Shown here piece by piece: positions 7,688 to 49,968 of a DNA stretch of 64,000 nt. Made by a program: the position numbers and the translations under genes. The stretch lies in contig JAJEJA010000061.1 in assembly GCA_022828145.1 (NCBI GenBank), positions 66,081 to 130,080 of the forward strand. Direction: 5' to 3'. The stretch comes from Candidatus Poribacteria bacterium (GTDB lineage Bacteria > Poribacteria > WGA-4E > WGA-3G). Every line of letters starts with the position of its first letter. Position 1 is the first letter of the stretch. The notes beneath the pieces are model-generated. The model worked only from the letters and a program-made list of their open reading frames with translations. It did no database searches and was not told the origin of the DNA.

Positions 7688-7936
7688 GTGAACATCAAAA
7701 TTCAGAACCTTGAAGGGAAAGATGGAATCTGTGTCTCAAAGAATCTGTTGGATTCAGCACAGATCAAAGCAGATGAGGAAGTACAAGTTACCATTCAGAA
7801 TGGTAGAATAATTGTTGAATCTGCTGCTAAAGCAATCAAGCGGATTAAATTAAGGGAATTAGTATCAAAAATGCCTAAAGACTATAAACCTATGGAATTA
7901 GATTGGGGTAAACCTGTAGGAAAAGAGGTGTGGTAG
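7688..7936 (+). CDS. mazE: MazE/AbrB-family antitoxin-like protein (SpoVT/AbrB fold), with a GTG start.
   Basis: The C-terminal LDWGKPVGKEVW matches the MazE signature IDWGEPKDKEVW. It is 82 aa long. No mazF follows. Confidence 0.6.
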   Translation: MNIKIQNLEGKDGICVSKNLLDSAQIKADEEVQVTIQNGRIIVESAAKAIKRIKLRELVSKMPKDYKPMELDWGKPVGKEVW

Positions 7937-33450: not shown

Positions 33451-34560
33451 ATGAAACAAATAAACTTACGCATGTATGCAATGGTATTTGCCTTATTCTG
33501 TATTTGGGTTATCTTTACACTTGTAACCGATGGTTTATTCCTTTCTGGACGTAATCTATTTAACCTTACCCGCCAAGCTGCTGTTACCGCAATTCTCGCT
33601 ATTGGTATGGTTTTGGTTATCATATCAGCGAATATCGACCTTTCAGTCGGATTTGGTGCAGGCTTGCTTGGTGCTGTCACCGCAATACTACATGTTCGGG
33701 CGAACTTGCCAGCTACATTAACCCTACTTATTGTCTTATGTTTAGGCATATTTATTGGCGTTATACAAGGATATCTTGTTGGATATCTACGTATACCAGC
33801 GTTTATTGTTACGCTGGGTGGTTTCTTGGTTTATAGAGGACTGATGTTAGCAGTTACAAAAGGTGAGACTATAGCACTACCCGATAACTGGTTAAAGGCG
33901 ATTGGAACTGCCCATATACCTAAAGCAATTGGTATCTATCTCCTGCTGTTTTGCATCGTCGTTTTTGTGTTAGTGTATATGAGACGACTTAAGAAAACAA
34001 CTGTTGAAAGATATCTCAAGACAGAACTTCACTATATTTTGACAAGTATTCTAATATGGATCATTATTATCGCTTTTGTGTTGGTTATGAATTCCTACAA
34101 AGGTATACCTGTGCTTGCTTGCATCATGTTCGGTTTAGCATTCATAGTTCATTTCATTGCAAACTACTCCCGTTTTGGGAGATATGTGTATGCAGTCGGT
34201 GGCAATTCAGACGCTGCCTATCTATCTGGAATTAATGTTGAGGGGATTACGTTGCGAGTCTTTGCTGTCATGGGAGCCTTAATGGCAATCGCAGGTATCG
34301 TTATGACAACGCGACTCGGCAGTGCCGGCCCTGAAGCAGGACGACTGCTTGAGTTAGAAGCTATTGCAGCATGTGTCATCGGTGGTGCAAGTCTCATGGG
34401 TGGACGTGGAACAATCTTCGGCGCAATCTTAGGAGCGTTTGTTATGGCAAGTCTCAGTAATGGCATGAGTATGGCAAACATGGGACCCTCATGGCAGGAC
34501 ATCATAACCGGTACAGTACTCGTCGCAGCTGTTGGATTTGATATGCTGTCAAGGAAATGA
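33451..34560 (+). CDS. ABC transporter permease (monosaccharide/branched-chain type, BPD_transp_2).
   Basis: Eight or nine TM helices. A conserved loop reads GGASLMGGRGTIFGAILGA. No ATPase or binding-protein gene is adjacent. Confidence 0.7.
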   Translation: MKQINLRMYAMVFALFCIWVIFTLVTDGLFLSGRNLFNLTRQAAVTAILAIGMVLVIISANIDLSVGFGAGLLGAVTAILHVRANLPATLTLLIVLCLGIFIGVIQGYLVGYLRIPAFIVTLGGFLVYRGLMLAVTKGETIALPDNWLKAIGTAHIPKAIGIYLLLFCIVVFVLVYMRRLKKTTVERYLKTELHYILTSILIWIIIIAFVLVMNSYKGIPVLACIMFGLAFIVHFIANYSRFGRYVYAVGGNSDAAYLSGINVEGITLRVFAVMGALMAIAGIVMTTRLGSAGPEAGRLLELEAIAACVIGGASLMGGRGTIFGAILGAFVMASLSNGMSMANMGPSWQDIITGTVLVAAVGFDMLSRK

Positions 34561-34636: not shown

Positions 34637-34739
34637 GATAATTAAACACTGTTTTCTCACATTTTTTTAAACCAAACTCGTAAATTCCTCCCTCTTTACT
34701 GCTGAATACAACTCTTGCGTTATTCCGAGGTATATAAAT

Positions 34740-36497
34740 ATGCATTACGAATCTATCTCTATTTGTGATCAGAAAGACGTAGATTTAGTCCGTCTTATCC
34801 AAGCACGTGATGAAGCAGCATTCAAAGAACTCATGTCCCGTTATAATCCACTCATCTGGAATATATTAAACCGGAATGTCAGACAACACCGAGATGCAGA
34901 AGAAATCCTTATGGATATCTGGATGATTGTTTGGGAGAACATTATCGGTTTACGAAACGCAGAAAGTTTTGCGGGATGGTTACGACGAATCGCTTTCACT
35001 GCCTGCAAAAGATACTACGCAAAAAGGACATCTCAACAGAGCGAACTCCTACTCAATTATGAAGATTTGGCTCTACAGATAGACAGAGAAGCTGAAAAAC
35101 GTTTCCATGATGACAGAATACGGGAAGATGCAAGGGAAGCAGTCCAGCATCTTCCACGAGGTATTAGGAGTATTGGAATCAGATACTACCTTGAACAGTG
35201 GACTATCACTGATATTGCGGATGAACTAAGTCTGCCAACTGGAACAGTAAAGTCCCAGCTAAGTAAGGTGAGAGATCTGCTGCGTAAAGAATTCGAAGTC
35301 AAAACTGAACCTATTAGGAGGAAAACTATGTCAACTAAAGATACAATCATTGAGAATACCGAATCAATGGTTAAAATCATCGGAGTAGGTGGGGCAGGAT
35401 GTAATGTCATCAGAACAATGTCAGAGACTGAATGTCCTGACATCGCTTTCTACGCTATTGATACAGATAAAAAAACGCTTAATACATGCACAGGTGCAGT
35501 GCAGCTGCAAATCGGTAAAAACACGACGCACGGAGACGGAACACATGGGAACCTGGCACTCGGGAGGCAAGCAGCTGCAGAAGACATGGATCAGCTACGA
35601 TCAATTGTTGAAGGGGCACAGGCTGTTTTTGTAATTGCTGGATTGGGTGGTGGAACAGGCACAAGCGTGGCACCAGTTGTCGCATCGCTTGCACAGGAGC
35701 AAAATGCATTGACCTTCTGTATTGTAACAAGACCATTCCAGGCTGAAGGTAAAAAACGAAGTGAAAGTGCAGAAGTAGGATTGCAGGAATTGCACAAGGA
35801 TCCATCGCAAAGTCTGGACGCTGTAATCACAATTCCTAACGAGCAAGTATTAGAAATAATCAACAGTGGTCCCCCCTTACAGGATGTCTTGCAAGGAAAC
35901 AATGAAATCTTAATACAGGGAATTTGTGCAATCACGGATATGGTATTAGATTTTCCTCAAGAAATAACCGTCTCTATAGATGACATAAAGGAATTTTTGC
36001 GCGACCAAGGGATTCTGCAGATGAGTATTGGAAAAGCAAGTGGTGAAAACAGAGCAACGATCGCAGCACAGAACGCGATGTCCTCACCTTTACTCTCTGG
36101 CAATAGAATAGCTGATGCAAAGAGAGTCATCTTAAGTATCGCAGCACCACCCAACTTTGATATGCAAGAATTCGACGAAGCGATTAATGTTTGCATTGAT
36201 AGATCAGAAATTGTAGATTTTATGATTGGCTTGGTTCATAAAGATGATCTAGAACAATCAGATGAGGTACTGATTACCGTAATTGCATGTATGCCGAGTC
36301 ATAAGAAAAATCAGGACTCTGAAACATCAAAAAGCATTCAAGATGATACAACGGGAGAGAATATTGATAAGTCCATAAGTTCATCAGAGTATGCGAATCA
36401 AGTCAATTTCAGTCAATACGATCTATCACAGCATTTATCTAATGATGCAAGTTTAGTGCGGAGTACTATTGAGGATAGTATATCCAATGCAGTTTAA
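34740..36497 (+). CDS. ECF sigma-70 factor (regions 2 and 4, about residues 1-185) fused in frame to a divergent FtsZ/tubulin-like GTPase (about residues 197-585).
   Basis: The Sigma70_r2-like segment is DLVRLIQARDEAAFKELMSRYNPLIW...ILMDIWM. The r4 helix-turn-helix is ITDIADELSLPTGTVKSQLSKVRDLL. FtsZ G-box motifs IIGVGGAGCNV, FYAIDTD and GLGGGTGTS are present. A T7-like loop ITDMVLDFPQE is present. The C-terminal domain resembles FtsZ_C. There is no stop between the domains. Confidence 0.7.
   Translation: MHYESISICDQKDVDLVRLIQARDEAAFKELMSRYNPLIWNILNRNVRQHRDAEEILMDIWMIVWENIIGLRNAESFAGWLRRIAFTACKRYYAKRTSQQSELLLNYEDLALQIDREAEKRFHDDRIREDAREAVQHLPRGIRSIGIRYYLEQWTITDIADELSLPTGTVKSQLSKVRDLLRKEFEVKTEPIRRKTMSTKDTIIENTESMVKIIGVGGAGCNVIRTMSETECPDIAFYAIDTDKKTLNTCTGAVQLQIGKNTTHGDGTHGNLALGRQAAAEDMDQLRSIVEGAQAVFVIAGLGGGTGTSVAPVVASLAQEQNALTFCIVTRPFQAEGKKRSESAEVGLQELHKDPSQSLDAVITIPNEQVLEIINSGPPLQDVLQGNNEILIQGICAITDMVLDFPQEITVSIDDIKEFLRDQGILQMSIGKASGENRATIAAQNAMSSPLLSGNRIADAKRVILSIAAPPNFDMQEFDEAINVCIDRSEIVDFMIGLVHKDDLEQSDEVLITVIACMPSHKKNQDSETSKSIQDDTTGENIDKSISSSEYANQVNFSQYDLSQHLSNDASLVRSTIEDSISNAV
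35316..35330 (+). promoter_or_regulatory. Internal translation-initiation site: AGGAGG, then a 6-nt spacer, then ATG (35328), exactly at the sigma/FtsZ junction.
   Basis: A perfect Shine-Dalgarno sequence with a spacer, seen directly in the sequence. Confidence 0.4.
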
Positions 36498-36548: not shown

Positions 36549-36575
36549 AAGTAGTAGGCACACTCCGTGTGCCGT
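36549..36575. repeat. 27-bp element AAGTAGTAGGCACACTCCGTGTGCCGT with a perfect 7-bp stem (GGCACAC/GTGTGCC). It sits downstream of the fusion gene and may be a terminator.
   Basis: An identical copy lies at 46178-46203. Confidence 0.5.
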
Positions 36576-36670: not shown

Positions 36671-37585
36671 TTGGAAAATACAATGAATATCAATGAACGT
36701 TTCCAGAACTACACACGATCTGAACTGCCACCTAAATTTAAGGAAAGACTTGACCGTAAACAGATCACTGAGATTGCCTTATCACCCGACGGTACAAAAC
36801 TCGCTGGTAGCGGTGAAGGACGTATATGGGTCTACGATCTGGACAGTAGCGAGCAGGTGGCAATGCTTGCTGGACATGCAGATCGCATACGTGCTTTGGC
36901 ATTTGCACCTGACAACACCTCCATTGCAAGTGCCAGTGAAGATAATACACTCAGACTATGGGATACGGACCAGGGAAACGAGATTGCAACAGTCGCAGGG
37001 GATACATCAAACCTTGCGACAGCCTTAGCATCATCTCCTGATGGCGTTCCTTTGACAGCATGGAACGAAGAGACTGTCCGACTGCTCAGTAGTTCTGGCA
37101 CTGAACCTTCACGTATCAGAACACTGCGGTATTCGGATGATGGAGATACCCTCGTTAGCGGTGGCGTGGATGGTAAGATACGTGTCTTTGAAATTGAGAC
37201 AGGACGTCAAAACGCATCATTTGCTGCACATGACGGTTTAGTCTTATCTCTCGCCCTAACTTCGGATGGTCAATTCTTTGCCAGTGGTGGTTCGGATACT
37301 ACCGTCCGCTTATGGGACATGAGTGATCATCGGCTGCTGGCTACCTTGACGGCGCATGCTGATTCTGTCTATGCATTAGCGTTTTCCGATAACGGAGAAA
37401 TGCTTGCCAGTGGTGGAAGAGACCCCCATGTTCGGCTCTGGAATGTCCAAGCGAGAGGTCTCATGCGTACTATACCAATTCAGGACGGTTTTGTCTGGAA
37501 GTTAGCATTTTTACAAGACAGAGATAGTGATACAGAAAAACTCGTTTGTATCAATAGAGATGGAAGCCTCTTGCAGTGGGAATGA
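36671..37585 (+). CDS. WD40-repeat (beta-propeller) protein.
   Basis: About seven WD-like repeats (GH...A.S.D.T.RLWD). Confidence 0.8.
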   Translation: MENTMNINERFQNYTRSELPPKFKERLDRKQITEIALSPDGTKLAGSGEGRIWVYDLDSSEQVAMLAGHADRIRALAFAPDNTSIASASEDNTLRLWDTDQGNEIATVAGDTSNLATALASSPDGVPLTAWNEETVRLLSSSGTEPSRIRTLRYSDDGDTLVSGGVDGKIRVFEIETGRQNASFAAHDGLVLSLALTSDGQFFASGGSDTTVRLWDMSDHRLLATLTAHADSVYALAFSDNGEMLASGGRDPHVRLWNVQARGLMRTIPIQDGFVWKLAFLQDRDSDTEKLVCINRDGSLLQWE

Positions 37586-41063: not shown

Positions 41064-44042
41064 CTAATCGTGCCTTTGGGCTGGGGGAGACGGTTGTTCA
41101 AGATACACCTGATAGAGATGTTGCTTGAGTTCGGCATTAATTTCAGGTTTAGATAATTTCTTATAGAGTTCAAGTTTGGTGTTGACGTAATCCAATAAAA
41201 ACTCATCAAACACCTTATAAAACCACTCTTCTTTGCTGCTCTCCGAATTATCCCCTTCAATCACCAGTCGAAGTGCTTCGTCAGCGTTCATTTTTTGTTG
41301 AATAGTCTCAATATCAACCTTATCTTCCTCTGTAAACTCTGTCTGATATGCCTCATTCAGAGCCTGAATGATATTAGAGAGCAGATCTTGTTCCGGTTCT
41401 CTGCTCGGTTGGACACCACTACCAATCCCTTCAACCTCGCTATCTTCTGGTTCGAGAATTATTTGTTGGTTCTCATAAATTTTCGCCACACGCAACGAAT
41501 CCAAGTTTACAGAATAGATGACATCTTGTAGGTTAGGATTATCCCGTTTCGGCAGCTTCTTGTTGAGGCTGCGTCCAAAGACGTACAATTTTTCTAACGC
41601 CACATCTGTGAAAGTAATCAGTTGTGAGATGTATCCGTAGAGACGAATATAACTTTGCAAGGCAGAACGAAACTTCTCTTTTTCGTCTGTTTCATTCTCC
41701 ATCCATTTCTCAACAACGTCATCAAGAATGCCTTGTAGAAGTTCGTCGGGTTGATCAGCATCATAAAAGACTTCACAAAATCGGTTAATAATATCAGCAT
41801 CGTAGAGATCAAAATCGCCTAACTGACTCTGTAGGTCATACAAGCGATTCGGGTCGGTTTCCTCCGCGAGCGTTGTCGTCTGATAGTATTGTTGGAATGC
41901 GGCTTGTATCTGTTCAGGGTCATTCACAAAATCGAGTACCAGCGTATCTGTCTTACCGGGGGCGACGCGGTTCAGGCGGCTTAAGGTCTGGACACACTGC
42001 AGCCCGTCTAACTTCTTATCAACATACATTGTCTGTAGCATCGGCTCATCAAAACCGGTTTGGAATTTATTCGCGACAATCAGAATACGATACTGTGGAC
42101 TCTTGAAGGTGTCTGCAATTGAAGCTTTTGGTGGTAATTCGTTCATGCTGTTTTCCGTATAGTCCACTTCGCTGTCGGTGTCGTGAACGGTATCACTGAA
42201 TGCTACCAGACATCCGTAGGGTAGGTTCATCGCCCGCATCTGTTTATCAAATTCTAACTTGTATTTGACACAGTGCAGTCGGGACGGCGTGACCAGCATC
42301 GCTCGCCCCTTACCTTCTATCGTTTTCTCCGTGTGTTCTATGAAGTGTTCCAACATAATCTTGGTTTTCTTCTCAATGCTGGTCGGTTGCAGGTCGACGT
42401 AGCTGGTCAGTGTCCGCAGCGTGCGTGCCTTATCGTACTCTTTATCCTCCGACACGCTTTTGACCAGTTCAAAATATCGTTTAAAGGTAGTGTAATTCTG
42501 CAGCACGTCAAGTGTGAAGCCTTCACTGATACTTTGACGCATGGAATAGGTATGGAACGGAACAAACTTCCCATTCACATTCTTCTGTCCGAACAGTTCT
42601 AATGTCTTATTCTTCGGTGTGCCGCTGAAACCGAAATAGGAGATATGATCCTGCATCCTGCGCTGTTCCATCTGCTTGATAATTCGAGCGTCTATACCCG
42701 ATATTTCTTCGGTGTCATCTTCGTCTTCGGTTTCTTCTTCAATCCCTTTTGAAAGCGAAACTCTGAGGTCTTTTGCAGCTTCACCGCTCTGTGAGGAGTG
42801 CGCTTCGTCAATAATCACTGCAAAGGTCTTGCTATTAAGCGCGCCGATTGTTTCCGCAATCACACTGAACTTCTGAATCGTGGAAATTATGATGCTTTTG
42901 CCGGATTCAAGAAAACCTCTGAGTTGTGCTGAATTCTTGTCAACGGCATGAACCACACCCTCGACCTGTCCTACCTGCTTGATTGTATCTTGCAGTTGCT
43001 TATCAAGTACGAGTCGATCTGTCACCACGATAATAGAGTCGAAAATCCGATGTGTCATGTCCGAAGAACTGTATAAATGCGTTAGCAGGTGCGCTAACCA
43101 TGCAATTGAATTGGATTTACCGCTCCCTGTAGCGTGTTGGATTAGGTATTTCTGTCCGACATCCTTCGCTTTAATATCTGTTTTCAAATCACGGATTACA
43201 CTCAGCTGATGGTATCGCGGGAAAATAAGCACTTTATGCGTTATATCTTTCACGTCGTCGATTCTGTGGTCGTAAACCTTCTCTGTGACCTCCTGCTCAT
43301 GAATAAAGTTGTTGATTAACTCCACCAGGTTATCGGGTTGCAGGATGTCCTCCCACAAGTAGGCGGTCTTGTGACCTTTCCTATTCACAGGATTTTCTAT
43401 GTCCTTGTTAAACGGAAAGAACCGTGTCTCATCCCCTTGTAATCGGGTTGTCATTGAAACCTTTTCGTTACCCACCGCAAAGTGAACCAGACACCGCTTG
43501 AATTTGAACAACGGTTCATTCTTATCTCGATCTGTCCGATACTGTTTCTCCGCATCTGTGAAAACTTGACCGGTAAGGCTGTTTTTCAGTTCCATTGTCA
43601 CTAACGGCAAACCGTTGAGGAACAACACCATATCCAGCGATTTCTCGTTCCGCTGTGCGTAATACAGTTGTCTTATTAAAGAGAATCTGTTTTGCGAGTA
43701 AAGTTTCTGATGGATGGGGTTCATGCCACTTGATGGTAGGAAGTAAGTCAGGTCAAAATGACACCCTCTATCCGCAATGCCTTTCCGTAGCACGTCCAAC
43801 ACTCCGCGGCGATCAATCTCTCTGCTTATGCGGTCACGGAGTTTAGTGGGAGTATCTGCTCCATATTGCCGTTCCAGTTTCTGATATACCTTTAGTTGTG
43901 TGTCTTTAATAAACTGGAGCGTCTCATTCGGTATTAGACAGAGAGATTTATCATAATCGGAAGACAGCAGAGATTGGTAACCCGATTGATTCAGGTGTGC
44001 TTCAATGTGATCTTCAAATTTTTCTTCTGTATACTTCGGCAT
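41064..44042 (-). CDS. hsdR: Type I restriction enzyme R subunit (HsdR).
   Basis: HsdR N-terminus, SF2 helicase motifs (ATGSGKS, DEAH) and about 990 aa in length. Confidence 0.9.
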   Translation of the reverse strand: MPKYTEEKFEDHIEAHLNQSGYQSLLSSDYDKSLCLIPNETLQFIKDTQLKVYQKLERQYGADTPTKLRDRISREIDRRGVLDVLRKGIADRGCHFDLTYFLPSSGMNPIHQKLYSQNRFSLIRQLYYAQRNEKSLDMVLFLNGLPLVTMELKNSLTGQVFTDAEKQYRTDRDKNEPLFKFKRCLVHFAVGNEKVSMTTRLQGDETRFFPFNKDIENPVNRKGHKTAYLWEDILQPDNLVELINNFIHEQEVTEKVYDHRIDDVKDITHKVLIFPRYHQLSVIRDLKTDIKAKDVGQKYLIQHATGSGKSNSIAWLAHLLTHLYSSSDMTHRIFDSIIVVTDRLVLDKQLQDTIKQVGQVEGVVHAVDKNSAQLRGFLESGKSIIISTIQKFSVIAETIGALNSKTFAVIIDEAHSSQSGEAAKDLRVSLSKGIEEETEDEDDTEEISGIDARIIKQMEQRRMQDHISYFGFSGTPKNKTLELFGQKNVNGKFVPFHTYSMRQSISEGFTLDVLQNYTTFKRYFELVKSVSEDKEYDKARTLRTLTSYVDLQPTSIEKKTKIMLEHFIEHTEKTIEGKGRAMLVTPSRLHCVKYKLEFDKQMRAMNLPYGCLVAFSDTVHDTDSEVDYTENSMNELPPKASIADTFKSPQYRILIVANKFQTGFDEPMLQTMYVDKKLDGLQCVQTLSRLNRVAPGKTDTLVLDFVNDPEQIQAAFQQYYQTTTLAEETDPNRLYDLQSQLGDFDLYDADIINRFCEVFYDADQPDELLQGILDDVVEKWMENETDEKEKFRSALQSYIRLYGYISQLITFTDVALEKLYVFGRSLNKKLPKRDNPNLQDVIYSVNLDSLRVAKIYENQQIILEPEDSEVEGIGSGVQPSREPEQDLLSNIIQALNEAYQTEFTEEDKVDIETIQQKMNADEALRLVIEGDNSESSKEEWFYKVFDEFLLDYVNTKLELYKKLSKPEINAELKQHLYQVYLEQPSPPAQRHD

Positions 44043-44045
44043 CGT

Positions 44046-45302
44046 CTAAACCTCGTTTCGGACATCTATCTTGCCTGTCACCGCTTCAGAGATGAGGGAT
44101 TGACGGTATTCCTTGAGGAGTTGGATTTTTTGATTTTCTGTGGCTATCAGTTCGTCAATCTGTTTAGTCTTACAGTCAAGGAAGTTAGCGATTTGGGTTT
44201 GTTCTATCATAGATGGATAGGGGACAATGATATCCTTAAAATCATCAAATCGTAGTTCCCATTGGCTCGTTCTAATTCCGTAAGACAACCTATTAAACTC
44301 TTGAATGTAAGAATCAGACCTAAGTAAATGATGGAAGTATTTGCCAAAAAAATGTTGCTTAGGTTTACACACAGTATAAGCAGGGCTAACAATTCCTCTA
44401 TATTCAGAGATGCCTAAAGAACCTTGCCAACATTTCATTTTGTTAAACACGAAATCCCCAGGTTCAACGAGTTTATAGTTTGATATGTCCTCTGATATTC
44501 TGTTGTAATTATCGTCTCTGCTGTCTCGCTTAATGACCCCGTAATCTCTATAAACAGATAAATTGATTTCTCCAGATGTATTCTTTATATGCTTTCGTTC
44601 AAACAGATAATTACACTTTACTGTATCCCAATGCTTTGGTATCTCTCCAATCCACTCCACGCCCGACGGTTTCATCTCCACATTTGGGTCAAGTCCCTTT
44701 GTTACTGTCTGATTTATCAGTGCGGTGCGTTGTTCTTGTAGGAGTTCTGTCTGTCGTTCTTTGATGCGGACGAGTTCGTCAATCTGTTCGGTTTTGCGGT
44801 CAAGGAAGTTAGCGATTTGTAATTTCTCATGATCTAAAGGTATAGGGATTTTTGCATTCAGAATATCATCAACTGCCGTTCGTGGCATTTTTGCCCCGTA
44901 AGATATAGAATCGCAGTATTCAATGAAGCGATTGGATTGCATCAAATAGAAAAGATATTTGCCCATACATTGTAAAGTAGGTCTTATGACTATCATTTCA
45001 CCAAGAGAGTACCCATCATATTTGGCAAAGACTACCTTGTTGAGATAGACACGAATTTTGTTAAATAACACATCCCCAGCTTGAAATTTCACACCCACCG
45101 CATCATAGGAACTATAAAAATCAAGGACTTTACCGGTTTTCGATTCAACATTTTCAGGCGAAATTTTTATAGCATCTGTCTCTGGTGTAGATTTTTCACT
45201 TACAAGGGTTGCGACATGTTTTATTCTCTCTATCTTCCAATGTGCTGGTATCTCTCCAAGCCACTCTACGCTGCTCTTTTTATATTCGGGGTAACGCTTC
45301 AT
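44046..45302 (-). CDS. hsdS: Type I restriction-modification specificity subunit (HsdS), with two target-recognition domains.
   Basis: Two conserved coiled-coil spacer repeats (LDRKTEQIDELV... and LDCKTKQIDELI...). It lies 3 nt upstream of hsdR. Confidence 0.85.
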   Translation of the reverse strand: MKRYPEYKKSSVEWLGEIPAHWKIERIKHVATLVSEKSTPETDAIKISPENVESKTGKVLDFYSSYDAVGVKFQAGDVLFNKIRVYLNKVVFAKYDGYSLGEMIVIRPTLQCMGKYLFYLMQSNRFIEYCDSISYGAKMPRTAVDDILNAKIPIPLDHEKLQIANFLDRKTEQIDELVRIKERQTELLQEQRTALINQTVTKGLDPNVEMKPSGVEWIGEIPKHWDTVKCNYLFERKHIKNTSGEINLSVYRDYGVIKRDSRDDNYNRISEDISNYKLVEPGDFVFNKMKCWQGSLGISEYRGIVSPAYTVCKPKQHFFGKYFHHLLRSDSYIQEFNRLSYGIRTSQWELRFDDFKDIIVPYPSMIEQTQIANFLDCKTKQIDELIATENQKIQLLKEYRQSLISEAVTGKIDVRNEV

Positions 45303-45464
45303 AATTCTAATATCTTTTTGTCAGAATCTCGGATTATTCGGTAAACACACCTCAGTTAACATATCTGGCATAGATGGGCGCGGAAAGTGTTTATGTCTGT
45401 GAAACTTTTGATGGCGAATTCTTTGTGATGTTCTTGTAATTTCGTAGTGTGTCTCCTTTCAAAA

Positions 45465-45603
45465 TCGTACCATATGGTACGAAATTTCGTACCGTGGTAC
45501 GATTTGGTACAATGGCGGTGGCGTTAGTCGCAGTAAGGTTTTGTAGCGTGTTTTTTGACAGAGTCAAAATTTTAAAATTCCTTTTTGGTACGAAATTCTC
45601 GCC
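45465..45603. promoter_or_regulatory. Cluster of GGTACGA/TCGTACC palindromes about 165-300 bp upstream of hsdS: TCGTACCATATGGTACGA, TCGTACCGTGGTACGA and a further GGTACGA half-site. A TTTTGACAGAGTCAAAA palindrome is also present.
   Basis: Perfect palindromes seen directly in the sequence. A regulatory role is inferred. Confidence 0.35.
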
Positions 45604-45959
45604 ATGTTGAAATATGGATAAAAAAATCGGTTTTTTTCTGATATTGCGATCCTTTCTGGTCGTATTGTATAATAGCATTGTCAACACCTTTTTTGTACAA
45701 ACTTTTCGTTAGTAGTATATTAACATATAGAATTACATTTGTCAAGTTAAATATGAAAGGGGTGTGTAAAGTTTTTGTTCCTCTATTTGTCTGAATCGCG
45801 GATTACACGGAGGACACGCCAGTTATATACATCGGCGCGGAAGGGGTTTCTGGATCATTATATGACTTTGATCGGCTGCAAAGAAGCACAATCTAACAGA
45901 ATGTGGCAGAATACGCGTTTGGTATTCTGCATTGGTTAGGAAATTGCACCTACCTTTTT

Positions 45960-46287
45960 GTCTGAACCAGGATTTACAGGATTACCATGATGATTTACAG
46001 GATAAGAGTTTGTGCAATCTTTTTTTGTAGGGACGGGGTATCCTTGTCCGTTGTATCATTTTTTTAGTCCCTAATGAAGTTTAGGCAATTTTGTGAGGTT
46101 AGGAAGAAATCAACGGTATGAATGCCATTTAGGCATTCCCCGCCTCGTCAGCAGCGCGGTGAACCTGCCTTATGCAAAGTAGTAGGCACACTCCGTGTGC
46201 CGTATGTTAAAAGGTTCTTCAATGGAAGAATTTCTTATCCTGAAAATCCTGGTCAAATCTGGAAATCCTGTAAATCCTGGTTCAGAC
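45960..46287. mobile_element. MITE-D, a 328-bp element with perfect 24-bp terminal inverted repeats (GTCTGAACCAGGATTTACAGGATT). It contains the 46178-46203 hairpin element.
   Basis: The TIRs are exact reverse complements of each other. A related solo end lies at 3085-3142. Confidence 0.55.
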
Positions 46288-46358
46288 AAGTAACCAGAAC
46301 TTTACACACCCTCTTATAGGTCAGGACTTATAACGCCAATACCTCATTCAGCAAACCT

Positions 46359-46874
46359 TCACTTTTCCGTTCCAGTACTCCGATGCAATCGTTGAATATC
46401 AGCTTCGCAAATAAACGCTATTGTCACACCATTTTGACGGAATGCGTCACGGAAATCCAACCACTTACTATCTACTGCTTGCAGGATAGGCGTTTTTTCT
46501 GGATGTGTCATCGCAACAGCGATAAATTTCCGGTCATCTGGATCAAAGTCATTCAATGCTGGATCGTTTGGGAACTCCTCAAACTCGTTATCTGAACCAT
46601 TGACAGGTGTAATCGAAACTAAATCGCACTGTGTATCCTTGTTTCTCAAGAGCCATAAGAGAAACCTATCGCCAGCACCCGGTTCTCCACTGGAACGGAG
46701 ATTTCTTAGGTACTCACTAAGGATTATCCACATATCATCAAGCACTAATTTCTCCTCGCCACGGATAATCCTTTCAAGCCGATTGATACATGTATCTACA
46801 CAATTAGGAGAGGCTTGCAACGATTGCCCGTTGGCGACCACTGCGACATTTGTATCTACAATTACCACCATCAT
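46359..46874 (-). CDS. PIN-like small nuclease, partner of the upstream AAA ATPase.
   Basis: N-terminal VIVDTNVAV (PIN motif I). GEEKLVLDD is a candidate acidic motif. DRKFIAVAM is a D..hhA.A-type motif III. It overlaps the ATPase gene by 4 nt. Confidence 0.45.
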   Translation of the reverse strand: MMVVIVDTNVAVVANGQSLQASPNCVDTCINRLERIIRGEEKLVLDDMWIILSEYLRNLRSSGEPGAGDRFLLWLLRNKDTQCDLVSITPVNGSDNEFEEFPNDPALNDFDPDDRKFIAVAMTHPEKTPILQAVDSKWLDFRDAFRQNGVTIAFICEADIQRLHRSTGTEK

Positions 46875-48226
46875 TTCATCACTTTCCGCCGCTGCATTTC
46901 AACTTTTGTCTTTTCCACTAAATCACCAATATCATCGCCAAAGAAGTCTTGGGGCCAATTCAGAATGTTGCCGTATTCATCAACCTTGAGTCGTTCAATT
47001 TCTGATGTGCCATCGTTGATCTGACAGAAATAGAGTGCTGTGTCATCCGCTGCAATTTGCTCTTCTGCGATCCGTCGTTGCAGACGGTGAAGCAGAAGTG
47101 CACTGTGGCTTTCAAGGATAATCTGGACGTTTCGATTTTTGACGACATCAATGAGAACATCTGCCAAACCTGCTTGTACTTTCGGATGCAGGTGAATTTC
47201 TGGTTGTTCAAGAATTACGGTTGATTTTTCTGGGACATAGTAACAAAGGACGAGTACAGGCAAGAGTTGTGAAACACCAAAACCGACATCAGTAATTAGC
47301 ACCTCGGAACTGTTTCGACTCTTTTTCACACGGAATTCATAATCCTTTCGGTTCTCGGCGATAGGTTCAAGTGAAAAAGAATAAATTAGTTCCATTTTTT
47401 GTAACCATTCTAAAATTCGCTGTTCTATGGGTTTATGAGAACGTTTCACATTGACGAGTCGGGATGAAGTCAATCCTTCTGCACGCGCTGCAAGCAGGGC
47501 AGGGATGGCTTCTTCTCCACTGATACCGACATCTTGAGGTCGTTCTCCAGACCAAATATAACTGCGTCTTGGATACTCGCGAAGTGGACCGAGATATGCT
47601 ATATCAGAAAATAGGTTTTCAAAGGCGAGTACGAAGTCTGAAAGAAAACCAAGATTCTGGTAGTATCCACTAACTTCGTCTGGAAAACCGTAACATTTTA
47701 CGGGAGGGGGTAAATTCCACGGACGTCCGGGGTTTCGTATTGCTTCATAGCCTTCATGAATTAGTTCGTACTGATTCTTTCCGCTTTTCTTTTTCTTCAT
47801 GTCTCGTTTCATTCCAAATTTGCTGAGTTTATTCTTGTAATGGAAATACTCAACGAGAGGACGGTCGTTTTCTTCGCGGATTTCTGTCTGGAACGTAAGG
47901 TTGTTCCCTTGATCAAACAGACTTCTATTAATAGGCAACCGCTTAGGTAGATTCCAAGATAAATCTATCTGGAGTGTTAAATCTGTGTTATGTGTATAAA
48001 GCACATCATGAAAGGTGCCGAAGTCAACAAGGGAACGGTCATCTCCAAAGTGTAGAACTCTATTTCGGTCAGGAGATTCTACAGTCTGCATGAGCATCAA
48101 CAGCACCTGTATGATACTGGTTTTACCGGAACTATTCGCGCCGAAAAGTCCAGTTAATGGCGCAAACTGTAACGTATCCGTATCTTGCCATGATTTAAAA
48201 TTTCGTGCTCTGAGTTCGGTAATCAT
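46871..48226 (-). CDS. AAA_21/ABC-type ATPase (SMC-like, OLD/RloA/AbiL-like family).
   Basis: Walker A motif GANSSGKTS. Walker B/signature-like ILEQPEIHLHP. H-loop ILESHS. It overlaps hsdM by 4 nt. Confidence 0.75.
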   Translation of the reverse strand: MITELRARNFKSWQDTDTLQFAPLTGLFGANSSGKTSIIQVLLMLMQTVESPDRNRVLHFGDDRSLVDFGTFHDVLYTHNTDLTLQIDLSWNLPKRLPINRSLFDQGNNLTFQTEIREENDRPLVEYFHYKNKLSKFGMKRDMKKKKSGKNQYELIHEGYEAIRNPGRPWNLPPPVKCYGFPDEVSGYYQNLGFLSDFVLAFENLFSDIAYLGPLREYPRRSYIWSGERPQDVGISGEEAIPALLAARAEGLTSSRLVNVKRSHKPIEQRILEWLQKMELIYSFSLEPIAENRKDYEFRVKKSRNSSEVLITDVGFGVSQLLPVLVLCYYVPEKSTVILEQPEIHLHPKVQAGLADVLIDVVKNRNVQIILESHSALLLHRLQRRIAEEQIAADDTALYFCQINDGTSEIERLKVDEYGNILNWPQDFFGDDIGDLVEKTKVEMQRRKVMK

Positions 48227-49968
48227 AATCCCAATACCTCATTCAGCAAACCTTCACTTTTCCGTTCCAGTGCCAACATTTCATCGGCAATTTCCTTGAG
48301 TGAACGCAGTGGCGTGTACTGATAGAAATACCGATTGAAGTTGATTTCGTAGCCAATCTTATCCTTTTTTCTGTCTATCCAACTATCAGGCACGTGCGGT
48401 TTTACTTCCCGTTGGTAGTAATCCTCAATGTTCTCTGTAAGAGGAACGCGTTCATGGTCTCGCAGCTTGGTATCCGGTTTCGGATTGCCTTTCTTATCCG
48501 GGACAACGATTTCACTCTCCTCTCCAAAAAAATCCTGCTTTTCAACGAGTGGTCTCTCAATTGTCACTTTCGTGTAACCGAAAAAGTCGTTTGGATAGAT
48601 TCTGCAGTGTTCAGTTTCTTCAAAGTTGGTGTACAGTTCAGCTATCTGACGGATATGACTATCGGAGATAAATGCATTCTTGTCCCCGAGATTTCTTTTC
48701 ATAGTATCATAGAAGTCAACGGCATTGATGAGTTGTATCTTACCTTGTCGCGCTTCCGATTTTTGATTTGTTAAAATCCAAATGTAGGTTGCGATACTGG
48801 TGTTAAAGAAAAGTTTCTCAGGTAGTGCAACAATACACTCTAACCAGTCGTTTTCAATAACCCATTTTCGGATTTCACTTTCACCACTACCGGCATCACC
48901 CGTAAAGAGTGGTGATCCGTTAAAGACAATTCCGATGCGACTCCCGCGGTTCTCCATCTTGGAGAGCATGTGTTGTAGAAACAGCAACGCCCCATCAGAG
49001 GAACGAGGCGTACCCTTTGAGAACCTGCCATTGGGATTCTCCGCTTCGTTTTTCACCACATTTGCATCAGATTTCCAGCTGACACCAAAGGGGGGATTTG
49101 TGATCATATAATCAAATCGTTCACCCTGAAATTGGTCGTTAGAAAGGCTTGAACCGTGTCGGATAGCACCAGGGTCTTCACCTGTAATTAACATATCTGA
49201 CTTGCAGATTGCATAAGTCTGCGGGTTCAGTTCTTGACCAAACAACTGAATTTTAACATCGGGATTGATCTGTTCGCGAAAGTAATTCTTCCCAATCGTC
49301 AACATGCCTCCTGTTCCGCAGCACGGGTCGAAAATCTTGCGGACAAGTCCCTGCCCGCGTAAGTCCTCTCGGTGCTCGGCAAAAAGTAAGGAGACCAGGA
49401 GCTGCACGACATCCCGCGGTGTGTAGTGTTCTCCACTGGTTTCGTTAGACATCTCCGAAAACTTGCGGAGCAATTCCTCAAAGACCAGTCCCATCGTGCG
49501 GTTGTCTACCTTAGCGGGATGCAGGTCAACTTCGGTAAATTTTTCGCAGAAAGTGTACAACCGATCACTTTGGTGCAACCGCTCAATCAACTGGTTGAGA
49601 TTGAAGTTCTTAATAATATCCTGAACATCTTGGCTGAAACTGTTGAGATAGTGTTGTAAGTTGTGATGGATATTATTCGGGTCATCCTTTAGGCGAGAGA
49701 GGTCATACTTGGAGGTGTTGTAGAAGTTTGCATTTGTCTCTCTCAGAATAATCGGGGGTAGCAAGTCTTCAGATATTGCACCACTGAATCGGTTGTAAGT
49801 ATCAATGGCTTTCTCTTTTCGGTCATTCTCGTCTAAGATGCAGTCCAATCTACGCAGCACTAAGAACGGGAGGGTGATGTCTCCGTATTCGTGCGGTTTG
49901 AACAATCCTCTGAGAACATCATCTGCCACATTCCAAACGAGATTTGCTAATTCTTGGTAATTTGCCAT
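48223..49968 (-). CDS. hsdM: Type I restriction-modification N6-adenine DNA methyltransferase (HsdM).
   Basis: HsdM N-terminal domain. SAM-binding motif DPCCGTGGML. Catalytic NPPF in ITNPPFG. Confidence 0.9.
   Translation of the reverse strand: MANYQELANLVWNVADDVLRGLFKPHEYGDITLPFLVLRRLDCILDENDRKEKAIDTYNRFSGAISEDLLPPIILRETNANFYNTSKYDLSRLKDDPNNIHHNLQHYLNSFSQDVQDIIKNFNLNQLIERLHQSDRLYTFCEKFTEVDLHPAKVDNRTMGLVFEELLRKFSEMSNETSGEHYTPRDVVQLLVSLLFAEHREDLRGQGLVRKIFDPCCGTGGMLTIGKNYFREQINPDVKIQLFGQELNPQTYAICKSDMLITGEDPGAIRHGSSLSNDQFQGERFDYMITNPPFGVSWKSDANVVKNEAENPNGRFSKGTPRSSDGALLFLQHMLSKMENRGSRIGIVFNGSPLFTGDAGSGESEIRKWVIENDWLECIVALPEKLFFNTSIATYIWILTNQKSEARQGKIQLINAVDFYDTMKRNLGDKNAFISDSHIRQIAELYTNFEETEHCRIYPNDFFGYTKVTIERPLVEKQDFFGEESEIVVPDKKGNPKPDTKLRDHERVPLTENIEDYYQREVKPHVPDSWIDRKKDKIGYEINFNRYFYQYTPLRSLKEIADEMLALERKSEGLLNEVLGL

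What the first reader, a model, noticed from the sequence alone, without database searches (positions are those of the whole stretch)
34740..36497. ECF sigma factor fused in frame to a divergent FtsZ/tubulin GTPase
One uninterrupted 585-codon ORF encodes a complete ECF sigma-70 factor followed by an FtsZ homologue. The sigma part has a region 2 DNA-melting/core-binding segment and a region 4 helix-turn-helix. The FtsZ part has a recognisable G-box (GVGGAG), the tubulin signature GGGTGTS, a T7-like loop (LxDxxE instead of NxDxxD) and an FtsZ_C-like domain. Its acidic, Ser-rich tail lacks the conserved FtsA/ZipA-binding peptide. The gene is not in a dcw (mur-fts) cluster. Its neighbours are an orphan ABC permease upstream and a WD40 propeller protein 170 bp downstream. 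A perfect AGGAGG-N6-ATG sits exactly at the domain junction at 35316-35330. So either a stand-alone FtsZ-like protein is also made from the internal start, or the upstream stop codon was lost. I know of no described sigma factor covalently linked to a cytomotive GTPase. If it is real, it suggests sigma-factor activity is controlled by GTP-dependent polymerisation or sequestration. An alternative is a localised filament that positions RNA polymerase.
Basis: partly seen in the sequence, partly recalled or inferred. Interest (0 to 1): 0.85.

Follow-up and report, generated by a model that had tools for sequence, protein, structure and literature searches.

The report
Sigma factor fused to FtsZ copy
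This is a real gene found across the sponge-symbiont phylum Poribacteria, in which an alternative sigma factor is joined in one reading frame to an extra copy of the cell-division protein FtsZ (in most relatives also to a DNA polymerase); the literature I could search does not describe it, and it may link gene expression directly to the cell-cycle machinery.

Summary
The 585-codon ORF (34740-36497) is real and encodes an ECF sigma factor fused to an FtsZ-type GTPase. It is not an artefact. A scan using sigma-specific peptide patterns found 210 related loci in species-representative genomes; the best 80 are all Poribacteria or unnamed uncultured-bacterium MAGs, including complete chromosomes and a single-cell genome.

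In 39 of those 80 loci the frame runs on into a DnaE-type polymerase (about 1,350-1,740 aa). The window gene is a shortened, fast-evolving derivative whose tail is a relic of the polymerase N-terminus. The same sigma subfamily also carries FtsZ's GTPase half alone, beta-clamp domains or WD40 propellers.

A canonical ftsZ with the FtsA-binding peptide sits in a normal dcw cluster in these genomes, so the fused copy is an extra paralogue.

Two conserved DNA features define the unit: an ECF-like promoter (AAACC-N16-CCCTC, window 34669-34694) and a strong internal ribosome-binding site plus ATG at the junction (35316-35330). The SD-like match reaches 5 nt or more in 89% of loci versus 1% of control ATGs, so a free FtsZ-like protein is probably also made.

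The function is inferred, not shown. My best guess is an ECF sigma factor without an anti-sigma factor, whose activity is coupled to FtsZ-type assembly.

The parts
34666..34698 (+). Conserved ECF-type promoter-like motif: TTTAAACC (-35-like; AAACC at 34669-34673), a 16-nt spacer, then CCCTCTTTA (-10-like; CCCTC at 34690-34694)
   Evidence: It is the single match in the window (expected 0.19). It is conserved in 21 of 21 aligned upstream regions, including those of the unlinked 400-aa paralogue. Of 53 regex hits in 1.49 Mb of loci, 49 lie upstream of fusion genes. It is also upstream of the sigma-WD40 and sigma-DnaN(2,3) genes. Promoter function is inferred.
34727..34730 (+). Weak Shine-Dalgarno (GAGG) for the sigma start codon
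   Evidence: Read from the sequence. Duplex energy with the anti-SD is -7.2 kcal/mol in the window; the family mean is -4.9.
34740..36497 (+). Full ORF of 585 aa: ECF sigma, linker, FtsZ paralogue and PHP-relic tail
   Evidence: Full-length relatives share 40-92% identity.
34830..35030 (+). Sigma region 2 (residues 31-97; helical domain at 13-93 in the model)
   Evidence: Pfam PF04542 scores 31 bits, above the threshold of 24. pLDDT is about 75-91. dN/dS is 0.14-0.26 for the sigma part as a whole (residues 1-190).
35124..35288 (+). Sigma region 4 helix-turn-helix (residues 129-183)
   Evidence: Pfam PF08281 scores 26.9 bits, above the threshold of 25.7. pLDDT is about 64-82.
35301..35360 (+). 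Disordered junction linker (residues 188-207)
   Evidence: pLDDT is below 50. The amino-acid sequence varies across the family.
35316..35330 (+). Internal ribosome-binding site AGGAGG, 6-nt spacer and ATG (Met197): start of a nested 389-aa FtsZ-like product
   Evidence: The junction codon is ATG in 78 loci and GTG in 2. An SD-like match of 5 nt or more occurs in 89% of 80 loci versus 1.1% of 901 control internal ATGs. Duplex energy is -9.2 at the junction, -4.9 at the sigma start and -1.6 at controls. The stand-alone copies P0011 and P0122 begin at this Met. Use of the site in vivo is not shown.
35370..35864 (+). FtsZ/tubulin GTPase domain (residues 211-375); T1 is GGAGCN, T4 is GGGTGTS, and T3 is degenerate (GDGTHGN)
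   Evidence: Pfam PF00091 scores 126.8 bits. Motif comparison is. dN/dS is 0.17-0.28. pLDDT is about 85-94.
35967..35984 (+). T7-loop equivalent TVSIDD (residues 410-415); Asn and the first catalytic Asp are lost
   Evidence: Taken from the HMMER alignment to NLDFAD. The wider family keeps N-V-D-x-x-D; the change is specific to the window's subclade.
36015..36287 (+). FtsZ C-terminal domain (residues 426-516), under relaxed constraint
   Evidence: Pfam PF12327 scores 45.5 bits. dN/dS is 0.45-1.2.
36390..36485 (+). Tail segment YANQVNFSQYDLSQHLSNDASLVRSTIEDSIS (residues 551-582): a degenerate relic of the DnaE PHP-domain N-terminus
   Evidence: It is colinear with FVHLHNHSEYSLLDGACRIPDMV in relatives. 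The direct HMM score is only 1.7 bits (38/1000 shuffles reach it). Intermediates support homology: L011 scores 8.0 bits (0/1000), and an HMM of short-form tails from other clades scores the window at 10.1 bits (1/1000) and a true PHP N-terminus at 31.2 bits.
33451..34560 (+). Upstream neighbour: ABC permease (BPD_transp_2), a conserved syntenic anchor and probably a separate transcription unit
   Evidence: Pfam result. It is present upstream in 35/39 long and 21/22 mid-length loci.
36671..37585 (+). Downstream neighbour: 304-aa WD40 beta-propeller protein; its functional link to the fusion is uncertain
   Evidence: Pfam result. It is conserved downstream only in the window's wider clade, at 64-99% identity. 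The same sigma subfamily occurs fused to WD40 propellers elsewhere.

Best explanation
Shown:
- The gene belongs to a Poribacteria-wide family in which an ECF-type sigma factor (sigma2 + sigma4) is joined by a disordered linker of about 20 residues to a paralogue of the lineage's own FtsZ.
- The older form continues into a DnaE-type polymerase. The window lineage deleted the polymerase and kept a relic of about 32 residues.
- A canonical ftsZ in a dcw cluster coexists with the fusions.
- The unit carries a conserved ECF-like promoter (AAACC-N16-CCCTC). It also carries a conserved, strong internal ribosome-binding site plus ATG at the sigma/FtsZ junction.

Inferred mechanism:
- The sigma part recognises its own promoter, giving positive autoregulation.
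- Translation yields two nested products: a major free FtsZ-like protein (389 aa, from Met197) and a minor sigma-tagged version.
- The FtsZ-like moiety takes the place of the missing anti-sigma factor. By GTP-dependent association with the free FtsZ-like protein and/or the canonical FtsZ, the tethered sigma is held on, or released from, polymers. Transcription from this sigma's promoters would then follow the assembly state of FtsZ-type filaments, that is, GTP level or division status.
- In the window's subclade the T7 loop has lost its catalytic Asn and Asp, and the C-terminal domain is under relaxed constraint. This version would therefore act more as a non-hydrolysing binding or capping subunit than as a dynamic filament former. 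This parallels the 400-aa paralogue, which keeps only sigma and the GTPase half.
For: - **Real and conserved:** full-length relatives down to 40% identity; 210 confirmed loci; the frame is open in 79/80.
- **Domains:**
- **Selection:** purifying selection on sigma (dN/dS 0.14-0.26) and on the GTPase domain (0.17-0.28), relaxed on the C-domain (0.45-1.2).
- **Promoter motif:** specific to this sigma subfamily whatever the locus or cargo.
- **Internal start:** 89% versus 1.1% for SD-like matches; duplex energy -9.2 versus -4.9 kcal/mol, stronger than the sigma start in 98% of loci; natural FtsZ-only copies begin at this Met.
- **Canonical FtsZ:** it has the DIPAFLR peptide, lies in a dcw cluster and comes from the same genomes (contig-length matches).
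- **No anti-sigma factor:** none among the neighbours.
- **Tether:** the linker is disordered, so sigma is tethered rather than docked.
- **Known precedent:** at least 26 ECF groups use N- or C-terminal extensions as regulators in place of an anti-sigma factor (PMC8999054).
Against: - No expression, protein or biochemical data exist. Promoter use, internal initiation, GTP binding, polymerisation and co-assembly with canonical FtsZ are all inferred.
- The AlphaFold model gives no sign of contact between the FtsZ part and sigma (the linker has pLDDT below 50), unlike ECF41-type extensions.
- The cargo varies (DnaE, DnaN domains, WD40). The common principle therefore cannot be FtsZ polymerisation as such.
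- The window's T3 and T7 loops are degenerate, so GTP-dependent dynamics may be impaired.
- No regulon beyond the fusion genes themselves was found in the 1.49 Mb examined.
Confidence: 0.5

Rival explanations
1. Expression cassette only. The promoter, sigma and junction RBS/ATG form a portable, self-activating driver placed in front of various cargo genes. The functional cargo protein is the free product made from the internal start. The sigma-cargo fusion protein is just the sigma factor with an inert appendage, and the cargo does not regulate sigma.
For: The internal RBS is stronger than the sigma-start RBS in 98% of loci. The same promoter, sigma and junction precede different cargos, and cargo was swapped at one fixed locus. 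The linker is disordered with no docking.
Against: A stop codon would be trivial to gain. Even so, the frame stays open in 79/80 loci and in several paralogous families over phylum-scale divergence, which argues for selection on the covalent link. An unrelated ECF sigma (27% identity) is independently fused to DnaN with the same layout.
Confidence: 0.2
2. Tether rather than sequestration. The fusion places sigma, and with it RNA polymerase, on FtsZ-type filaments. In relatives it would place them on Pol III alpha or the beta clamp. Transcription of target genes would then be activated at or by the division or replication machinery, a cellular analogue of phage T4 late transcription, where the sigma-like gp55 works through the gp45 sliding clamp (own knowledge).
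For: The cargos are replisome and divisome parts: FtsZ, DnaE, full DnaN, and DnaN domains 2-3, which carry the partner-binding cleft. Two independent sigma-DnaN fusions exist. The flexible tether would allow sigma to reach polymerase core.
Against: WD40 cargos do not fit this picture. The window form has lost the polymerase and the T7 residues. No data on localisation or targets exist.
Confidence: 0.15
3. Decoy (guard) sensor. The C-terminal parts are baits that copy essential proteins often attacked by phage or toxin inhibitors (FtsZ, beta clamp, polymerase), or are generic WD40 sensors. Binding of an attacker frees or activates the sigma factor to switch on a response.
For: A constant N-terminal output module is combined with swapped C-terminal modules. 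The cargos are truncated but keep their interaction surfaces. The window clade evolves fast, with dN/dS up to about 1 in the C-domain. Copies are duplicated or disrupted by insertion sequences.
Against: The fusions match no PADLOC defence family and do not occur on viral contigs. The locus is a stable syntenic site among metabolic genes across the phylum, not a defence island. The polymerase active-site motif is kept in 34/39 long forms, which is unexpected for a pure decoy.
Confidence: 0.1
4. It is the organism's division FtsZ with an odd N-terminal extension, or else an assembly error or pseudogene.
For: The FtsZ core is about 37-43% identical to bona fide FtsZ.
Against: A canonical ftsZ with the C-terminal DIPAFLR peptide sits in a dcw cluster in Poribacteria and in fusion-bearing genomes. 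The window protein lacks that peptide, falls below the TIGR00065 cutoff, has a degenerate T7 loop and is not in a dcw cluster. The fusion recurs in complete chromosomes and in a single-cell genome. Sigma and the GTPase domain are under purifying selection.
Confidence: 0.03

Closest known systems
[quoted passage not shown] ECF41 with SnoaL-like, ECF42 with TPR, ECF57 with WD40-like extensions; PMC8999054, PMC7826278)
   Same: A sigma2 + sigma4 core with an extra domain fused after sigma4. No anti-sigma gene is adjacent. The gene appears to be autoregulated from an ECF-type promoter. Members of the same sigma subfamily carry WD40 propellers, as ECF57 does.
   Different: The extension is a complete paralogue of a cytomotive GTPase, and ancestrally also a DNA polymerase, of 390 to more than 1,200 aa. 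It is joined by a disordered linker, with no predicted contact to sigma. It has its own conserved internal translation start. Cargos are swapped between family members. Neither ECF classification paper mentions a Tubulin/FtsZ, DnaE or DnaN extension.
Extra FtsZ paralogues that lack the C-terminal tethering peptide, such as FtsZm of magnetotactic bacteria (own knowledge)
   Same: A lineage-specific duplicate of the cell's own FtsZ. It lies outside the dcw cluster, lacks the FtsA/ZipA-binding peptide and coexists with a canonical FtsZ.
   Different: It is fused to a sigma factor at its N-terminus and, ancestrally, to DnaE at its C-terminus. The window copy also lacks the T7 catalytic residues.
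Coupling of sigma-factor activity to cell-cycle machines: SpoIIE-FtsZ control of sigma-F in Bacillus sporulation, and phage T4 gp55/gp33 acting through the gp45 sliding clamp (own knowledge)
   Same: They offer a functional analogy: transcription initiation made dependent on FtsZ assembly or on a DNA-loaded clamp.
   Different: Those systems use non-covalent partners and unrelated proteins. Here the link is a covalent fusion to paralogues of FtsZ, DnaN or DnaE. The analogy is untested.
Nested genes with in-frame internal starts that give two isoforms (CheA-L/CheA-S, IF2 alpha/beta, ClpB; own knowledge)
   Same: An in-frame internal ATG with its own Shine-Dalgarno sequence inside a longer ORF, predicted to give a long and a short product that share their C-terminal part.
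   Different: The two products would differ by a whole sigma factor. Isoforms have not been observed.

Membership tests
ECF (group 4) sigma-70 family | Contains sigma region 2 and region 4 only, with no region 1.1 or region 3 | tested here: met
   PF04542 and PF08281 score above their gathering thresholds, with no region 3 hit. TIGR02937 sigma70-ECF scores 63.3, above 42.9. ECF sigma structures in the PDB match at E 1e-12.
ECF (group 4) sigma-70 family | Directs transcription from an ECF-type promoter, often its own | not testable with these tools
   A conserved AAACC-N16-CCCTC motif precedes every gene of this sigma subfamily that I examined. Recognition by this sigma factor is inferred only.
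ECF sigma with regulatory C-terminal extension | An additional domain fused C-terminal to sigma4, and no cognate anti-sigma factor nearby | tested here: met
   The FtsZ paralogue starts 20 residues after sigma4. The neighbours are an ABC permease and a WD40 protein, and no anti-sigma domain was found.
ECF sigma with regulatory C-terminal extension | The extension modulates sigma activity (contact with sigma2/sigma4 or the linker, or partner-dependent activation) | tested here: inconclusive
   The AlphaFold2 model has a disordered junction (pLDDT below 50 at residues 188-207) and an overall pTM of 0.69, with no evidence of docking. No functional test is possible with these tools.
Cell-division FtsZ (TIGR00065 equivalog) | Tubulin/FtsZ GTPase domain with the GGGTG(T/S)G signature, plus the FtsZ_C domain | tested here: met
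   PF00091 scores 126.8 bits and PF12327 scores 45.5 bits; the signature reads GGGTGTS.
Cell-division FtsZ (TIGR00065 equivalog) | Score at or above the curated equivalog cutoff | tested here: not met
   The score is 257.6 bits, below the 295.2 cutoff.
Cell-division FtsZ (TIGR00065 equivalog) | T7 synergy loop N-x-D-x-x-D | tested here: not met
   The window has T-V-S-I-D-D. The long forms of the family and the canonical Poribacteria FtsZ keep N-V-D-F-x-D.
Cell-division FtsZ (TIGR00065 equivalog) | Conserved C-terminal peptide that binds FtsA/ZipA, and a location in the dcw cluster | tested here: not met
   The tail has no D-I-P-x-F-L-R-type peptide, and the gene lies between an ABC permease and a WD40 gene. 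The canonical copy P0219 has DIPAFLR and lies after ftsQ-ftsA.
DnaE (Pol III alpha) PHP domain | A recognisable PHP domain | tested here: not met
   PF02811 does not hit the window protein. Only a relic of about 32 residues is present, with homology supported through intermediates. Long relatives have PHP, DNA_pol3_alpha, finger and HHH_6.
Known anti-phage defence systems (PADLOC) | Match to a defence-system protein model | tested here: not met
   The window fusion and a long form match no family.

The most novel reading that the evidence does not exclude
Poribacteria may use a self-activating 'sigma cassette' (own promoter, ECF sigma, junction start site) fused covalently to paralogues of the core cell-cycle machines: an FtsZ filament subunit, Pol III alpha and the beta sliding clamp. 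RNA polymerase would then be physically coupled to, or gated by, the division and replication apparatus. That would be a chromosomal, covalent counterpart of phage T4's clamp-dependent late transcription. Alternatively, the cassette could be a decoy-based surveillance system for attacks on these machines. The window gene would be the FtsZ-only, polymerase-less version of this system.
Probability: 0.25. Interest if true: 0.95.

Novelty: new variant of a known kind. Interest (0 to 1): 0.8.

Why it matters
How bacteria coordinate transcription with replication and division is a long-standing question, and the known links are indirect. In this phylum the link is written into single polypeptides: a promoter-specificity factor joined to FtsZ, DNA polymerase III alpha or the sliding clamp. 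The fusions are kept under selection in more than 200 loci. This gives a directly testable system, because the parts can be expressed and assayed in vitro even though Poribacteria are uncultured. It also extends the range of regulatory extensions known for ECF sigma factors. There is a practical point for annotation as well. These genes are currently labelled 'sigma-70 family sigma factor', 'DNA polymerase III subunit beta' or 'hypothetical', which hides the architecture.

Tried and rejected
- **FtsZ-half search:** searching with the FtsZ half alone did not reveal a same-lineage canonical FtsZ. Generic FtsZ proteins from other phyla filled the list, and none stood out. The canonical copy was found only through the exhaustive representative search with the 400-aa paralogue.
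- **P0122:** it first looked like a stand-alone FtsZ, but it is a family member truncated next to transposases and is not in a dcw cluster.
- **WD40 neighbour:** it is not a universal partner and is conserved only in the window's wider clade.
- **The 274-aa ORF after the long form in L013:** it is a Uma2 nuclease, not the missing DnaE C-terminus.
- **Leader hairpin:** an apparent ATTCCC/GGGAAT inverted repeat upstream of the sigma start would lie mostly upstream of the likely transcription start, so I dropped it as an mRNA structure.
- **Rfam:** nothing in the window.
- **Sigma-70 promoter and terminator scan:** not above chance.
- **PADLOC and PHROGs:** only generic hits.
- **Viral contigs:** none.
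- **Direct PHP-HMM test of the window tail:** marginal at 1.7 bits, so the relic claim rests on intermediates.
- **Literature:** no description of a sigma-FtsZ, sigma-DnaE or sigma-DnaN fusion. The supplements of the ECF reclassification paper were not available.
Full report
**1. The observation**

The ORF at 34740-36497 (+) is uninterrupted and 585 codons long. Pfam finds four domains, all above their gathering thresholds: Sigma70_r2 (residues 31-97), Sigma70_r4_2 (129-178), Tubulin/FtsZ GTPase (211-375) and FtsZ_C (426-516). NCBIfam places the N-terminal part in sigma70-ECF (63.3 bits against a cutoff of 42.9). The C-terminal part scores 257.6 bits against the ftsZ equivalog, below its cutoff of 295.2. 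Solved FtsZ structures match at about E 1e-58 and ECF sigma factors at about 1e-12.

One detail was mis-registered.

**2. The fusion is real**

A search with the full-length protein returned about 40 full-length relatives at 42-92% identity, some on contigs of 5-6 Mb. It also returned a larger group of proteins of about 400 aa that have sigma plus the Tubulin domain but no FtsZ_C.

A scan of one genome per species used two peptide patterns from the sigma part. It found 269 candidate stretches, of which 210 encode a relative. The best 80 are all Candidatus Poribacteria MAGs, apart from three labelled only 'uncultured bacterium'. They include many complete chromosomes and the single-cell genome WGA-3G. 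The reading frame is open through the junction in 79 of the 80 loci. The exception, L077, has a frameshift inside sigma region 4. Assembly error and a recently lost stop codon are therefore excluded.

**3. The window gene is a shortened member of a larger family**

When I extended the reading frames, 39 of the 80 loci ran on to 1,208-1,743 codons. Pfam shows that these long forms consist of sigma r2 + r4, then Tubulin + FtsZ_C, then PHP + DNA_pol3_alpha + finger + HHH_6. That is a DnaE-type polymerase fused after the FtsZ part, and it is also present in the single-cell genome. The active-site motif PDIDIDF is present in 34 of the 39 long forms.

On a neighbour-joining tree of the shared region, long forms occupy both major clades. 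Forms of about 590 aa appear in at least six separate places. The window lies in an all-short clade with long branches.

The window's tail (residues 551-582) is colinear with the PHP N-terminus FVHLHNHSEYSLLDGACRIPDMV seen in relatives. Direct similarity is marginal: 1.7 bits, with 38 of 1000 shuffles scoring as high. Intermediates connect the two:
- L011, from the window's own clade, scores 8.0 bits against the PHP N-terminus HMM (0/1000 shuffles).
- An HMM built from short-form tails of other clades scores the window tail at 10.1 bits (1/1000).
- The same HMM scores a true PHP N-terminus at 31.2 bits (0/1000).

Upstream synteny (AP_endonuc_2, MR_MLE, adh_short, TatD, ABC permease) is kept in 35/39 long and 21/22 mid-length loci. 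The WD40 gene downstream is kept only in the window's wider clade.

**4. It is not the division FtsZ**

The exhaustive representative search with the 400-aa paralogue found P0219 (449 aa). This protein has intact GLGAGANPE, GGGTGTGAAP and NVDFAD motifs, a Pro/Ala linker and a C-terminal DIPAFLR peptide. It lies in a textbook dcw cluster, mraY-murD-ftsW-murG-murC-ftsQ-ftsA...ftsZ.

Its orthologues are named 'cell division protein FtsZ [Candidatus Poribacteria bacterium]' where a source name exists. Several come from contigs whose lengths match contigs that carry a fusion: 3,583,287; 5,539,749; 6,158,967; 188,901; and 83,721 bp (one search compared).

P0219 is 58-64% identical to the FtsZ part of the long forms, 68% to the GTPase domain of the 400-aa type, and only 43% to the window's FtsZ part. 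It shares lineage-specific strings with all of them. The fused FtsZ is therefore a within-phylum duplicate, and the window's version has diverged quickly. I could not inspect the window's own genome, so for that genome the point is an extrapolation.

**5. Two conserved DNA features define the unit**

*(a) A promoter-like motif.* ATTTTTTTAAACC, 16 nt, then CCCTCTTTA lies 25-40 nt before the sigma start. It is present in all 21 diverse upstream regions that I aligned, including those of the unlinked 400-aa paralogue. The window has one copy, at 34669-34694, where 0.19 would be expected by chance. In 1.49 Mb of loci, 49 of 53 regex matches lie upstream of fusion genes. The motif also precedes sigma-WD40 and sigma-DnaN(2,3) genes of the same sigma subfamily. 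Its layout (an AAC core and a 16-nt spacer) is ECF-like. Autoregulation is inferred, not shown.

*(b) An internal start at the sigma/FtsZ junction.* The junction codon is ATG in 78 loci and GTG in 2. A purine-rich match of 5 nt or more to the Shine-Dalgarno sequence lies at -16..-4 in 89% of loci, against 1.1% of 901 other in-frame ATGs. The residues encoded there vary (RRKT, RGKT, KGET, KRGT, ERGG, EGVR). Predicted pairing to the anti-SD averages -9.2 kcal/mol at the junction, -4.9 at the sigma start and -1.6 at control ATGs. The junction site is the stronger of the two in 98% of loci. The natural FtsZ-only copies P0011 (in tandem with a full fusion in L002) and P0122 begin at exactly this Met. 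The gene is therefore very probably nested, giving a sigma-tagged long product and a free FtsZ-like short product.

**6. State of the parts in the window lineage**

Within the window clade, dN/dS is 0.14-0.26 for sigma, 0.17-0.28 for the GTPase domain and 0.45-1.2 for the FtsZ C-domain. T1 (GGAGCN) and T4 are intact. T3 is degenerate (GDGTHGN). T7 has lost Asn and the first Asp; this loss is confined to the subclade, and the wider family keeps NVDxxD.

The AlphaFold2 model (70-sequence alignment, mean pLDDT 71.7, pTM 0.69) gives confident sigma2, sigma4 and FtsZ folds. The junction linker (188-207) and the tail (521-571) are disordered, and there is a short terminal helix. Nothing suggests that the FtsZ part docks on sigma.

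**7. Wider context**

The same sigma subfamily is 45-69% identical among its members and about 22% identical to E. coli RpoE. Besides FtsZ and FtsZ-DnaE, it is found fused to PHP/DnaE directly, to DnaN domains 2-3 and to WD40 propellers. The sigma-PHP fusion (P0220) and one sigma-WD40 fusion (P0224) visibly keep the junction Met; P0225 and P0228 do not.

The sigma-DnaN(2,3) gene occupies the same syntenic slot as sigma-FtsZ-DnaE does in other genomes. Cargo was therefore swapped behind a fixed sigma.

A second, unrelated ECF sigma (27% identity) is fused to a complete beta clamp. It too has GGAGGT-N6-ATG at DnaN's own start codon. It is conserved at 66-72% identity, 3-6 kb upstream of the 400-aa gene, in 8 of 18 such loci.

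**8. Mechanism**

What is shown is the architecture, its conservation, the selection pattern, the two DNA signals and the coexistence of a canonical FtsZ. The rest is inference.

The closest known kind is the ECF sigma factor with a regulatory C-terminal extension and no anti-sigma factor. At least 26 ECF groups have N- or C-terminal extensions predicted to be regulatory, including SnoaL, TPR and WD40-like C-terminal extensions (PMC8999054). I propose that the FtsZ-like part plays that role. It would associate, in a GTP-dependent way, with the abundant free short product and/or with canonical FtsZ. The tethered sigma would then be sequestered or released according to filament assembly. In the window lineage the T7 residues are lost and the C-domain is relaxed, which suggests a binding or capping subunit rather than a dynamic polymer.

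The rivals are: a pure expression cassette in which the fusion has no regulatory meaning; a positive tether of RNA polymerase to division or replication machines, analogous to T4 gp55-gp45; and a decoy sensor for inhibitors of FtsZ, DnaN or DnaE. The fusions match no PADLOC defence family and do not occur on viral contigs. The locus is a stable metabolic neighbourhood. All three points weigh against the decoy idea without excluding it.

**9. Novelty**

Full-text searches for Poribacteria + FtsZ, for ECF + FtsZ + extension, for Poribacteria + sigma factor + DNA polymerase III, and for FtsZ + DnaE + sigma-70 + gene fusion found no description. Neither ECF classification paper mentions tubulin, FtsZ, GTPase or Poribacteria. 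The library covers open-access papers only, so an earlier mention elsewhere cannot be excluded.

I class the finding as a new variant of a known kind. It is an ECF sigma factor with a C-terminal extension, but with unprecedented cargos, a nested start and cargo swapping. I rate it as highly interesting.

Noticed in passing
L007 5124-6851 (+); also L068, L069, L070, L072, L073, L076, L083, L087: A different ECF sigma (27% identical to the window's) is fused in frame to a complete three-domain DNA polymerase III beta clamp (575 aa). GGAGGT-N6-ATG sits at DnaN's own start codon inside the ORF. The fusion is conserved at 66-72% identity, 3-6 kb upstream of the 400-aa sigma-FtsZ(N) gene.
   Followed up: partly
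L013 7986-12293; L058 8001-13232; L081 3082-7344, and 36 other loci: Giant ORFs of 1,208-1,743 aa encode ECF sigma + FtsZ + DnaE-type polymerase (PHP, pol3_alpha, finger, HHH_6). Most end after HHH_6; only L058 continues to 1,743 aa. The active-site motif PDIDIDF is kept in 34/39. I do not know whether these genomes have a second dnaE.
   Followed up: partly
L092 and L093 4001-5410: A sigma of the window's subfamily is fused to DnaN domains 2-3 only (469 aa; NCBI labels it 'DNA polymerase III subunit beta'). It sits in exactly the syntenic slot that sigma-FtsZ-DnaE occupies elsewhere, so cargo was replaced at a fixed locus.
   Followed up: partly
L091 1820-9636: Three tandem WD40 genes lie here, two of them sigma-WD40 fusions (901 and 906 aa). 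The first sigma belongs to the window's subfamily and has the same promoter motif and AGGAGG-N4-ATG junction. The second is a different ECF sigma with a GCAACC...CGTC-type upstream sequence.
   Followed up: partly
L068-L087 (e.g. L007 10001-11215); P0222: The 400-aa paralogue ends just after FtsZ helix H7, with no T7 loop and no C-domain. It coexists with the long form in the same genomes. A 212-aa stand-alone version with only the GTPase half also exists in Poribacteria.
   Followed up: partly
L002 6001-9089; L006 10001-11356; L056 about 5757 and 7480; L077 about 8500: The family shows signs of turnover: a tandem FtsZ-only copy next to a full fusion (L002); a copy truncated next to IS1595/DDE transposases and carrying an internal insertion (L006); a second sigma start with the promoter motif (L056); and a frameshift inside sigma region 4 (L077).
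   Followed up: partly
window 41064-49968 (-): A type I restriction-modification system (HsdR, HsdS, HsdM) has an AAA_15/AAA_21 + DUF3696 ATPase gene and a small 171-aa ORF embedded between hsdS and hsdM.
   Followed up: no
window 36557-36573: A perfect 7-bp palindromic stem-loop (GGCACAC-TCC-GTGTGCC) lies between the fusion gene and the WD40 gene. The T-run follows it only on the minus strand, where no gene converges.
   Followed up: no
window residues 221, 250 and 327 of the ORF (about 35400, 35487 and 35718): Cysteines are invariant or nearly so in the fused FtsZ part across the full-length (long and ~590-aa) family. One lies in the T1 nucleotide-binding loop (GGAGCN, where canonical FtsZ has GGGGNN), and another in LNTC. 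Cys89 in sigma2 is also invariant.
   Followed up: no
L012, about 100-170 nt upstream of the sigma start (about 7810-7880): A run of GGAAG-rich short repeats (TGGAAGA/TTGGAAGG units) lies upstream of the promoter motif in this one locus.
   Followed up: no
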